DNA of 64,000 nt from the human T2T-CHM13v2.0 reference genome, Homo sapiens. The stretch is taken from NCBI GenBank assembly GCA_009914755.4, contig CP068257.2, positions 18,048,001 to 18,112,000 of the forward strand, in the 5' to 3' direction. A program made the translations under genes and the position numbers. Shown one piece after another: positions 48,427-49,022 of this stretch. The notes below the pieces were generated by a model. That model made no database searches, had not been told where the DNA came from, and saw only the letters and a program-made list of their open reading frames with translations. Each line of letters opens with the position of its first letter. The first letter of the stretch is position 1.

Positions 48427-48538
48427 AGCTGTAAATATAAGATCAAGTTTAAAAGTAATTAGTAAAATCATATAGATGATTAATAAATAATAAGTACATT
48501 TATTATTTAATATCAGGTATCAGTTATGCACCATTAAA

Positions 48539-48572
48539 GGGCGGTATAGCTCATGGGTAGAGCATGTGACTG
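48539..48572 (+). other. tRNA-Cys(GCA)-like 5'-half fragment (acceptor stem, D-arm, anticodon stem and anticodon only). Not a functional tRNA gene
   Basis: gggcggtatagctcatgggtagagcatgtgactg(cag) versus human tRNA-Cys-GCA GGGGGTATAGCTCAGTGGTAGAGCATTTGACTGCAG, about 4 mismatches in 37 nt. The T-arm and 3' half are absent. Confidence 0.5.
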
Positions 48573-48595
48573 CAGTTATGCACCATTAAACAATA

Positions 48596-49022
48596 TGCCA
48601 TCTGTTATTCATTGAATTATACCGCCTCCCACACCAATTAATACATTGAAGTCCTAACCCTCACTACCTCAAGTGTGGCTTTGTTTGGAAATACAGTCAT
48701 GGCAGATATAATTAGTTAAGATGACGCCATTAGGGTGTGCCCTCCTTAGAATGTCAGCGGTCCTTATAAAAGGGGAAAAATGTGGCTACAGGCATACACA
48801 CATGGAGTGAGAGCATCATATAAAGATAGGAGTTATGCCGTCACAAGTCAAGGAATTACCAGGAGCTATGAGGGAGTCTTGGAACAGGATGTTCAGAGGA
48901 AGCACAGACCTGGCAACATAATGATTTAAGACTTTCGACCTCCAGGAGTGTAAGAAAATAAACTCCCGATGCTCTCAGATACCCAGTTTGTGGCACCTTC
49001 TTACAGCAGACCAACACAATGA
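48596..49022 (+). mobile_element. MaLR LTR (MST/MLT-type), plus orientation
   Basis: tgccatctgttattcattgaattataccgcctcccacaccaattaatacattgaagtcctaaccc...ggtccttataaaagg...gacctccaggagtgtaagaaaataaactcccgatgctctcagatacccagtttgtggcaccttcttacagcagaccaacac. It matches the remembered MSTA-like consensus (...cccttataaaagg...cttggacttcccagcctccagaactgtgagaaataaat...ccacccagtctatggtattttgttatagcagcccgaac). Confidence 0.55.

What the first reader, a model, noticed from the sequence alone, without database searches (positions are those of the whole stretch)
48521..48596. tRNA-Cys(GCA)-like 5'-half fragment inserted between perfect 18-bp direct repeats, next to the 5' edge of a MaLR LTR
The 34-bp sequence gggcggtatagctcatgggtagagcatgtgactg at 48539-48572 matches the 5' half of human tRNA-Cys-GCA. 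It covers the acceptor stem, the D-arm, the anticodon stem and the GCA anticodon, and it ends in the anticodon loop. It is bracketed by two identical copies of cagttatgcaccattaaa (48521-48538 and 48573-48590), i.e. flank-insert-flank, which is the signature of a target-site duplication. The 3 bp 'cag' at the junction could belong either to the tRNA (GACUGCAG) or to the repeat, which is microhomology. No T-arm, CCA or poly-A is present. This is therefore not a tRNA gene or a classical SINE. It looks like a retro-inserted or templated insertion of a tRNA 5' half (tiRNA-sized), or a filler-DNA event during repair. The second repeat copy ends 5 bp before the start of the MaLR LTR at 48596. The event therefore sits at an LTR boundary, where tRNA-primed reverse transcription products could plausibly be captured.
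Basis: partly seen in the sequence, partly recalled or inferred. Interest (0 to 1): 0.55.

Follow-up and report, generated by a model that had tools for sequence, protein, structure and literature searches.

The report
Tailless tRNA-Cys retropseudogene with duplication
This is a 36-37 bp retro-copied front half of the human cysteine tRNA, flanked by an 18 bp duplication of its insertion site; it is an ordinary member of a catalogued class, the "tailless retropseudogenes", and its position next to an old LTR looks incidental.

Summary
A perfect 18-nt direct repeat, CAGTTATGCACCATTAAA (48521-48538 and 48573-48590), brackets 34 nt. Window 48540-48575 matches nt 1-36 of human tRNA-Cys-GCA at 33/36 without gaps and ends in the anticodon loop. 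There is no T-arm, CCA or A-tail. The element starts at tRNA position 1 (plus one extra G) and shares a 3-nt CAG overlap with the repeat. This anatomy is that of the "tailless retropseudogenes" (Schmitz 2004; Noll 2015): 3'-truncated small-RNA copies made by LINE-1 target-primed reverse transcription, primed inside an RNA loop. Noll's hg19 catalogue lists 72 tRNA-Cys cases with a modal length of 37 nt, which is this size. All 14 independent human-derived contigs I retrieved carry the identical filled allele. No empty allele and no non-human primate orthologue could be obtained, so the age is undetermined. The adjacent MaLR (MLT1-like) solo LTR (48596-49016) has its own 5-bp duplication, and nothing ties it to the event. 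The idea that tRNA-primed LTR products were captured is not supported. One curiosity remains. The tRNA 5' end is perfectly complementary (9/9) to TATACCGCC inside the LTR, with P about 0.01. That match explains a sub-threshold "full-length" Rfam tRNA hit and is probably chance. Verdict: real, already known kind, low interest.

The parts
48521..48538 (+). Left copy of the 18-nt target-site duplication CAGTTATGCACCATTAAA
   Evidence: 100% identical to 48573-48590, and these are the only two occurrences in the window
48539..48539 (+). Extra G between the left duplication and tRNA position 1. It may be a non-templated addition or a pre-tRNA leader base; alternatively, read GGGCGG as GGGGG with an inserted C.
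   Evidence: the ungapped alignment to tRNA-Cys starts at 48540
48540..48572 (+). Unambiguous tRNA-Cys-GCA-derived segment (tRNA nt 1-33): acceptor 5' strand, D-arm, anticodon stem 5' strand, and the loop up to the first anticodon base
   Evidence: 33/36 over 48540-48575, score 57 against a background of 23; Rfam tRNA model aligns acceptor, D-arm and anticodon stem 5' strand with high posterior probability
48573..48575 (+). CAG overlap: either tRNA nt 34-36 (anticodon C and A plus nt 37) or the first 3 nt of the right duplication. This is the inferred priming microhomology.
   Evidence: the class definition requires 2-18 nt of such complementarity
48573..48590 (+). Right copy of the 18-nt target-site duplication
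48591..48595 (.). CAATA: left copy of the neighbouring LTR's own 5-bp target-site duplication (right copy is CAATG at 49017-49021)
48596..49016 (+). Older solo MaLR (MLT1-like) LTR, TG...CA. It is a neighbour of the tRNA insertion, not part of it.
   Evidence: ends and 4/5 duplication; diverged paralogue at window about 9300-9650, minus strand, nhmmer E=2e-5. The family name rests on my memory of the MLT1 consensus.
48618..48626 (+). TATACCGCC inside the LTR, the perfect reverse complement of tRNA-fragment nt 1-9 (48540-48548). It causes the pseudo 'full-length' Rfam tRNA alignment. Probably a coincidence.
   Evidence: (I2), (only occurrence of TACCGCC on the + strand in 64 kb; P=0.0126; fold z=-3.2)

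Best explanation
This is a tailless retropseudogene of cytosolic tRNA-Cys-GCA. It was made by the LINE-1 machinery through target-primed reverse transcription without a poly(A) tail. The inferred steps are as follows. The bottom strand of the target was nicked at the left edge of what is now the duplication (top-strand context AT/CAGTTATG). The freed 3' end (...CTG-3') paired with C-A-G in the single-stranded anticodon loop of a tRNA-Cys. That tRNA was either full-length (internal priming) or already cut there (a 5' half). Reverse transcriptase then copied the RNA to its 5' end. The top strand was cut 18 nt downstream. Fill-in produced the 18-bp target-site duplication on both sides of a 36-37 bp insert. 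The sequence shows directly the exact 5' start at tRNA nt 1, the 3' end in the anticodon loop, the absence of an A-tail, the perfect 18-bp duplication and the 3-nt overlap. The use of LINE-1 ORF2p and the order of the nicks are inferred by analogy with the class. The element keeps only an A-box-like segment and has no B box, so it is most likely an inert fossil. It inserted 5 bp from a much older solo MaLR LTR, which played no demonstrable role. It is fixed or at high frequency in humans.
For: The anatomy is shown. The match to tRNA-Cys nt 1-36 is 33/36 and ungapped, with a score of 57 against 23 for the next best place in the window. No tRNA gene is present, and the Rfam hit is below threshold. 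The class definition and mechanism come from Noll et al. 2015: copies that are 5'-complete and 3'-truncated by at least 10 nt, at least 30 nt long, with 8-35 nt duplications, truncation in loops, target complementarity to the terminal 2-18 nt, and LINE-1 target-primed reverse transcription. Their Table S2 lists 72 tRNA-Cys cases. The modal length is 37 nt, and 37 of the 72 are 33-38 nt long. Fourteen contigs from 14 different metagenome assemblies (human contamination, at least two haplotypes) all carry the identical filled allele. The empty-site 26-mer is absent from the JGI metagenome contigs.
Against: The target AT/CAGTTAT does not resemble the class consensus TT/WAAAAWW or the LINE-1 consensus TT/AAAA. 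The overlap is only 3 nt, which would arise by chance 1 time in 64. No orthologous empty site could be obtained, so insertion rather than some other origin is inferred from the anatomy alone. The three mismatches to the one isodecoder I could document (8%) sit oddly with a 36/36-identical duplication. Some of them probably reflect a different source isodecoder. I could not verify that this locus is in the published catalogue, because the genomic coordinates of the window are unknown.
Confidence: 0.85

Rival explanations
1. The tRNA-derived cDNA or RNA was captured during repair of a staggered double-strand break, independently of LINE-1 endonuclease (a templated or filler insertion by end joining), and the 18-bp duplication came from fill-in of 5' overhangs.
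For: The target lacks a TT/AAAA-like endonuclease site. Only 3 nt of microhomology lie at one junction and none at the other.
Against: An 18-bp duplication is the LINE-1 size class (8-30 nt staggered nicks). From general knowledge, endonuclease-independent and end-joining insertions usually lack duplications and often carry deletions. Hundreds of identical-looking tRNA copies share LINE-1-like targets and track LINE-1 activity across vertebrates.
Confidence: 0.07
2. The segment was copied at the DNA level (FoSTeS/MMBIR-type template switch or gene conversion) from a tRNA-Cys gene into the junction of an 18-bp tandem duplication.
For: Flank-insert-flank architecture can arise from replication template switching. 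Microhomology (CAG) is present at one junction.
Against: The copy starts within 1 nt of the mature RNA 5' end and stops in the anticodon loop, which are the modal boundaries of an RNA-derived class. A DNA template gives no reason for either boundary; for the 5' end alone the chance is about 2 in 75.
Confidence: 0.03
3. It is a by-product of LTR-retroelement replication: a tRNA primer or strong-stop product was captured at the edge of the MaLR LTR.
For: The right duplication ends 5 bp from the LTR start. There is a 9/9 complementarity between the tRNA 5' end and the LTR interior.
Against: Established retroviral replication copies the 3' 18 nt of the primer tRNA, next to U5 and downstream of a 5' LTR. 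It does not copy the 5' half upstream of U3. The LTR has its own 5-bp duplication lying between it and the tRNA event. The LTR is old and diverged: it is only weakly similar to its paralogue (E=2e-5). The tRNA event has a perfect 18-bp duplication. From memory, ERV-L-type elements use tRNA-Leu, not tRNA-Cys.
Confidence: 0.01
4. It is a decayed or interrupted complete tRNA (pseudo)gene spanning 48540-48627, whose acceptor stem closes with TACCGCC at 48620-48626, as the Rfam model aligns it.
For: Rfam's tRNA model gives an end-to-end alignment (model positions 1-71) at 22.6 bits, E=0.018, with a perfect 7-bp acceptor stem. TACCGCC is unique in the window. The fold has z=-3.2.
Against: The score is below the gathering score of 29, and ARAGORN finds nothing. 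There is no T-arm: 5 nt stand where the model has 20. The '35-nt insertion' in the anticodon loop consists of the second duplication copy, the LTR's own duplication and the LTR start. The TACCGCC lies inside sequence homologous to another LTR copy (ATTGAAT...TCCC vs ACTGAAT...TCCCC).
Confidence: 0.02

Closest known systems
Tailless retropseudogenes derived from tRNAs (Schmitz, Churakov, Zischler & Brosius 2004, Genome Res 14:1911; Noll et al. 2015, GBE, PMC5322556)
   Same: It is a 5'-complete, 3'-truncated copy of a small RNA with no oligo(A). It has a perfect flanking duplication of LINE-1 size and its end lies in a single-stranded loop. The element's 3' end overlaps the start of the duplication. 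The source (tRNA-Cys-GCA) and the length (36-37 nt) coincide with the main mode of the 72 catalogued tRNA-Cys cases.
   Different: The target AT/CAGTTAT departs from the statistical consensus TT/WAAAAWW. The overlap is only 3 nt and is not A-rich. I could not confirm that this locus is among the published coordinates.
Classical LINE-1-mobilised retrocopies (Alu, processed pseudogenes such as the SREK1IP1-like copy at 52120-52475 in this window)
   Same: Target-primed reverse transcription is the presumed mechanism, and the duplications are 8-30 bp.
   Different: There is no poly(A) tail. Priming is inside the RNA rather than at a 3' A-tract. The target is not TT/AAAA-like.
5' tRNA halves (tiRNAs), e.g. 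5'-tiRNA-Cys-GCA, 34 nt (PMC8413832)
   Same: The copied segment (33-36 nt of tRNA) has the same extent as the reported 34-nt 5'-tiRNA-Cys-GCA, which ends in the anticodon.
   Different: A tiRNA is an RNA species, not a genomic element. Whether the template was pre-cleaved or a full tRNA primed internally cannot be told from the sequence. Noll et al. favour internal priming, on evidence from 5S and U2.
U6/LINE-1 and other small-RNA/LINE-1 chimeric insertions (bioRxiv 10.1101/2025.02.02.635956)
   Same: Small Pol III RNAs are reverse-transcribed by ORF2p and fixed in the genome.
   Different: No LINE-1 segment is attached here, so no template switch between RNAs is needed.

Membership tests
Tailless retropseudogene (criteria of Noll et al. 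2015) | (Almost) complete 5' end of the source RNA, with at most 5 nt of overhang (up to 20 nt allowed for tRNAs) | tested here: met
   The alignment starts at tRNA nt 1 = window 48540. There is one extra G between it and the duplication.
Tailless retropseudogene (criteria of Noll et al. 2015) | 3'-truncated by at least 10 nt, length at least 30 nt, more than 69% identity to the source RNA | tested here: met
   It ends at tRNA nt 33-36 of 72 (75 with the CCA). It is 36 nt long and 33/36 = 91.7% identical to tRNA-Cys-GCA-2-2.
Tailless retropseudogene (criteria of Noll et al. 2015) | No oligo(A) tail at the 3' end | tested here: met
   The element runs directly into CAGTTATGC with no A-run.
Tailless retropseudogene (criteria of Noll et al. 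2015) | Flanking target-site duplications of 8-35 nt, at least 70% identical, at most 15 nt from the element's end | tested here: met
   The duplications are 18 nt, 100% identical and abut the element.
Tailless retropseudogene (criteria of Noll et al. 2015) | Truncation point in a loop or other single-stranded region of the RNA | tested here: met
   It ends inside the anticodon loop (CUGCAGA), by the structure and the alignment. This is also the main mode of the 72 catalogued tRNA-Cys cases.
Tailless retropseudogene (criteria of Noll et al. 2015) | Insertion site complementary to the terminal 2-18 nt of the copied RNA (priming overlap) | tested here: met
   There is a 3-nt overlap, CAG (48573-75 = tRNA nt 34-36 = start of the duplication). 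It is weak on its own, with a chance of 1 in 64.
Tailless retropseudogene (criteria of Noll et al. 2015) | Target resembling TT/WAAAAWW (a statistical consensus, not a filter criterion) | tested here: not met
   The target is AT/CAGTTATG. The neighbourhood is 74% A+T, but the nick site itself is not A-rich.
Tailless retropseudogene (criteria of Noll et al. 2015) | Made by LINE-1 ORF2p (target-primed reverse transcription) | not testable with these tools
   This is inferred from the duplication length and from class-level evidence.
Tailless retropseudogene (criteria of Noll et al. 2015) | Orthologous empty site (single copy of the 18-mer) in an outgroup | not testable with these tools
   No primate genomes are available. 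Protein-anchored look-ups and two metagenome scans returned only human filled alleles.
Functional tRNA gene | Complete cloverleaf with T-arm and B box, scoring above detector thresholds | tested here: not met
   ARAGORN finds none. Rfam scores 22.6, below 29, with the T-arm absent.
tRNA-derived SINE | tRNA-related head plus body and A-rich or LINE-derived tail, in multiple copies | tested here: not met
   There is no body or tail. The 34-mer is unique in the window at up to 3 mismatches.
LTR-retroelement primer-tRNA remnant (PBS read-through) | Sequence complementary to the tRNA 3' end, located immediately downstream of a 5' LTR (U5) | tested here: not met
   The fragment is the sense 5' half and lies upstream of the LTR's U3 end. 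It is separated from the LTR by the LTR's own 5-bp duplication.

The most novel reading that the evidence does not exclude
The 9/9 complementarity (imperfectly 23 Watson-Crick pairs over 28 nt) between the tRNA fragment's 5' end and the LTR start 28-36 nt beyond the duplication may not be chance. It could record a second RNA (or cDNA) to target pairing. In that case a free 5' tRNA half was held at the site by both ends: CAG at the nick, and GGCGGUAUA on the downstream top strand. Alternatively it could record short-tract conversion between the two inverted arms after insertion. The unusual C at tRNA position 3 faces an unusual G that interrupts the LTR's C-run. If this were general, target choice of tailless retropseudogenes would be guided by two-point complementarity, and pre-cleaved tRNA halves (with a free 5' strand) would be the templates.
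Probability: 0.05. Interest if true: 0.5.

Novelty: already known. Interest (0 to 1): 0.12.

Why it matters
In itself it matters little. It is one more fossil of LINE-1's relaxed template choice, of a kind catalogued genome-wide: 2,402 clean human cases, 72 of them from tRNA-Cys. It is useful as a textbook-clean example. It has perfect duplications, starts exactly at RNA nt 1 and stops in the anticodon loop, at a target that is not A-rich. That shows a 3-nt non-A microhomology can suffice for priming. Such insertions are homoplasy-poor phylogenetic markers if the orthologous state in other primates is scored. The only point that could raise its value is the unexplained complementarity to the neighbouring LTR, which suggests a cheap genome-wide test.

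Tried and rejected
1. Orthologue or empty-site search. I anchored on the 62-aa ORF at 48283-48471(-), 50 bp from the site, and used exact look-up, homologue search, cluster members and look-ups of P0002, P0004, P0007, P0026 and P0027. All contigs at this locus are human and filled. The hits of 85% identity or less are paralogues of a repeat covering 47989-48426. L008 and L015 looked like diverged orthologues (94.6% and 91.4%), but they are assembly chimeras: their differences cluster inside the repeat and the site region is 100% identical.

2. A second homologue search with the LTR ORF 48780-48926 found no candidates.

3. A metagenome scan for the empty-site 26-mer gave 0 hits. The locus-general 22-mer gave 1 further filled human contig.

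4. I tried to read Schmitz et al. 2004 by DOI and by PMC524414, but it is not held. The class description therefore comes from Noll et al. 2015.

5. I searched Noll's supplements for the 34-mer and the 18-mer. The tables hold only coordinates, so whether this locus is catalogued could not be checked.

6. I considered a 52-bp tandem duplication and rejected it, because nothing after the second 18-mer resembles the insert.

7. I considered that the insert is an inverted copy of the LTR start. I rejected this because the match to tRNA-Cys (33/36, ungapped) is far better than the match to the reverse-complemented LTR (about 19/30 with an indel).

8. I looked for other LTR copies in the window to fix the consensus at 48618-48626. 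Only one diverged paralogue turned up, which is not enough for a consensus.

Full report
**Observation.** CAGTTATGCACCATTAAA occurs at 48521-48538 and again at 48573-48590, 100% identical. It occurs nowhere else in the 64 kb, even with 3 mismatches allowed; shuffles give a mean of 0.15 matches and never two. A scan of the whole window for exact short-range direct repeats ranks it second longest. The other long ones are tandem duplications, microsatellites or the two halves of Alu elements. The 34 nt in between are unique in the window. The window is primate DNA. It holds an Alu and LINE-1 ORF2 fragments. Exact matches to contigs assembled from human-associated metagenomes show that it is human.

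**Identity of the insert.** I took a documented human sequence, tRNA-Cys-GCA-2-2, from PMC10359600. Window 48540-48575 aligns to its nt 1-36 without gaps at 33/36. The local score is 57, against 23 for the next best place on either strand of the window and 28 or less for six other human tRNAs. The match therefore begins exactly at the mature 5' end, preceded by one extra G at 48539. It ends inside the anticodon loop, after the first anticodon base if CAG is assigned to the repeat, or after nt 37 if CAG is assigned to the tRNA. No tRNA gene is called by ARAGORN. No Rfam family reaches its gathering score anywhere in the window.

**What it is.** The literature holds a class that fits point by point, the tailless retropseudogenes (Noll et al. 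2015, PMC5322556; first described by Schmitz et al. 2004, which I could not open). As filtered by those authors, members have these features:
- They are 5'-complete copies of small RNAs.
- They are 3'-truncated by at least 10 nt.
- They are at least 30 nt long and more than 69% identical to the source.
- They have no oligo(A) tail.
- They are flanked by 8-35 nt target-site duplications.

Truncations map to loops. The insertion site is complementary to the terminal 2-18 nt of the RNA, which is read as LINE-1 target-primed reverse transcription primed internally on the RNA. Every one of these criteria is met here: start at nt 1; 36 nt; 91.7% identity; no A-run; an 18-nt perfect duplication abutting the element; an end in the anticodon loop; and a 3-nt CAG overlap. 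Their Table S2 lists 72 tRNA-Cys-derived cases in hg19. I computed the lengths. The mode is 37 nt (15 cases), and 37 of the 72 lie between 33 and 38 nt. This element therefore sits in the main mode of its own sub-class. The reported 5'-tiRNA-Cys-GCA is 34 nt long, inside the ambiguous 33-36 nt range. The sequence therefore cannot tell a pre-cleaved half from internal priming on a whole tRNA. Noll et al. favour the latter, on evidence from 5S and U2.

**Where it departs from the class.** The target, written in their notation, is AT/CAGTTATG. This is neither TT/WAAAAWW nor TT/AAAA. The consensus is statistical and is not a membership filter. Still, it means the endonuclease step is less well supported than the rest, and it leaves some room for a break-repair capture. 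The three mismatches to one isodecoder (8%) contrast with a duplication identical at 36/36 positions. Part of that difference probably reflects another source isodecoder; D-loop variants are documented. I could not test this without GtRNAdb.

**Population and age.** I anchored on a 62-aa ORF 50 bp from the site and on its one-residue variant, and ran one DNA scan. This retrieved 14 contigs from 14 different assemblies (JGI, ENA human gut, bile, even a TARA sample). Thirteen span the whole insertion and one ends inside the insert. All carry the filled allele with identical sequence, on at least two haplotypes. The empty-site 26-mer is absent from the JGI contigs. The insertion is therefore real, not an assembly artefact, and is fixed or common in humans. 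No non-human primate sequence could be reached, so the decisive empty-site test remains open and the age is unknown. In Noll's data, 258 of the 406 dated human elements arose on the anthropoid stem.

**Relation to the LTR.** The neighbouring element runs from TG at 48596 to CA at 49016. It is flanked by CAATA/CAATG, a 4/5 match of the 5-bp size expected for an ERV-type integrase. A diverged relative lies at about 9300-9650 on the minus strand (nhmmer E=2e-5). Its homology reaches back to ACTGAAT...TCCCC, equivalent to 48611-48629. From memory of the consensus, the element is MLT1-like (MaLR). The tRNA event is thus separated from the LTR by the LTR's own duplication. It carries a LINE-1-sized duplication rather than a 5-bp one. 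It contains the 5' half of a tRNA in sense, upstream of U3. By established retroviral replication, primer-tRNA remnants would instead be the 3' 18 nt downstream of U5. I reject the capture idea and regard the 5-bp distance as incidental.

**An unexplained detail.** With permissive thresholds, Rfam's tRNA model aligns end to end over 48540-48627 (22.6 bits, E=0.018, gathering score 29). The reason is that GGCGGUA pairs perfectly with UACCGCC at 48620-48626. The T-arm is missing, and a "35-nt insertion" sits in the anticodon loop. The complementarity is 9/9 (GGCGGTATA/TATACCGCC). It extends imperfectly, and the 88-nt stretch folds at -28.5 kcal/mol, z=-3.2. TACCGCC occurs once on the + strand in 64 kb. 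When the fragment is dropped at random sites, it finds an inverted match of at least 9 nt within 100 nt in 1.26% of trials. The 3' arm lies inside LTR-homologous sequence, so this is not a split or decayed tRNA gene. I consider it most likely a coincidence noticed after the fact. I record the alternatives in the novel reading: two-point RNA-to-target pairing at integration, or conversion between inverted arms. A genome-wide enrichment test would settle the question.

**Verdict.** The LTR-capture speculation is not supported. The phenomenon belongs to a class described in 2004 and catalogued in 2015. Novelty: already known. Interest: low.

Noticed in passing
window 48540-48548 vs 48618-48626 (extending to 48593-48626): There is a perfect 9-nt inverted repeat between the tRNA fragment's 5' end and the start of the neighbouring LTR. 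TACCGCC is unique on the + strand in the 64 kb. The 88-nt stretch folds with z=-3.2 and yields a sub-threshold 'full-length' Rfam tRNA alignment. The non-canonical C at tRNA position 3 pairs with a G that interrupts the LTR's C-run.
   Followed up: partly
window 52120-52475 (+): A processed pseudogene resembles SREK1IP1 (name from memory). Its reading frame runs [10 protein letters not shown]...[10 protein letters not shown] with an in-frame stop at codon 33, and it gives a zf-CCHC_3 zinc-knuckle hit of 24.3 bits.
   Followed up: partly
window 47989-48426: An unnamed interspersed repeat lies directly upstream of the site. It has 85% identical paralogues on other human contigs (L009, L010), and 25 ORF-level relatives turned up in the protein collection. 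I did not identify the family.
   Followed up: partly
L008 and L015 (metagenome contigs): Two 'human gut metagenome' contigs are only 94.6% and 91.4% identical to the window. Their differences cluster inside the repeat at 47965-48376, and they are 100% identical around the tRNA insert. They look like assembly chimeras between paralogous repeat copies, not orthologues.
   Followed up: yes
window about 9300-9650 (-): A diverged MLT1-like LTR copy ends in ...GCAGCCCAAACTAAGACA. It is the only relative of the 48596-49016 LTR in the window (nhmmer E=2e-5).
   Followed up: partly
window 45491-47587 (-) and about 44260-44434 (-): LINE-1 ORF2 fragments lie on the minus strand: a 344-aa and a 158-aa ORF with reverse-transcriptase motifs, with RVT_1 on the matching gene in L001. 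An Alu lies just upstream of the studied region.
   Followed up: no
window 39271-39332; 52984-53021; 28767-28840: There are three short tandem duplications or minisatellite-like repeats: 17-19-nt units spaced 20-23 nt apart, a 19-nt unit, and a 42-nt unit. They were found while ranking direct repeats.
   Followed up: no
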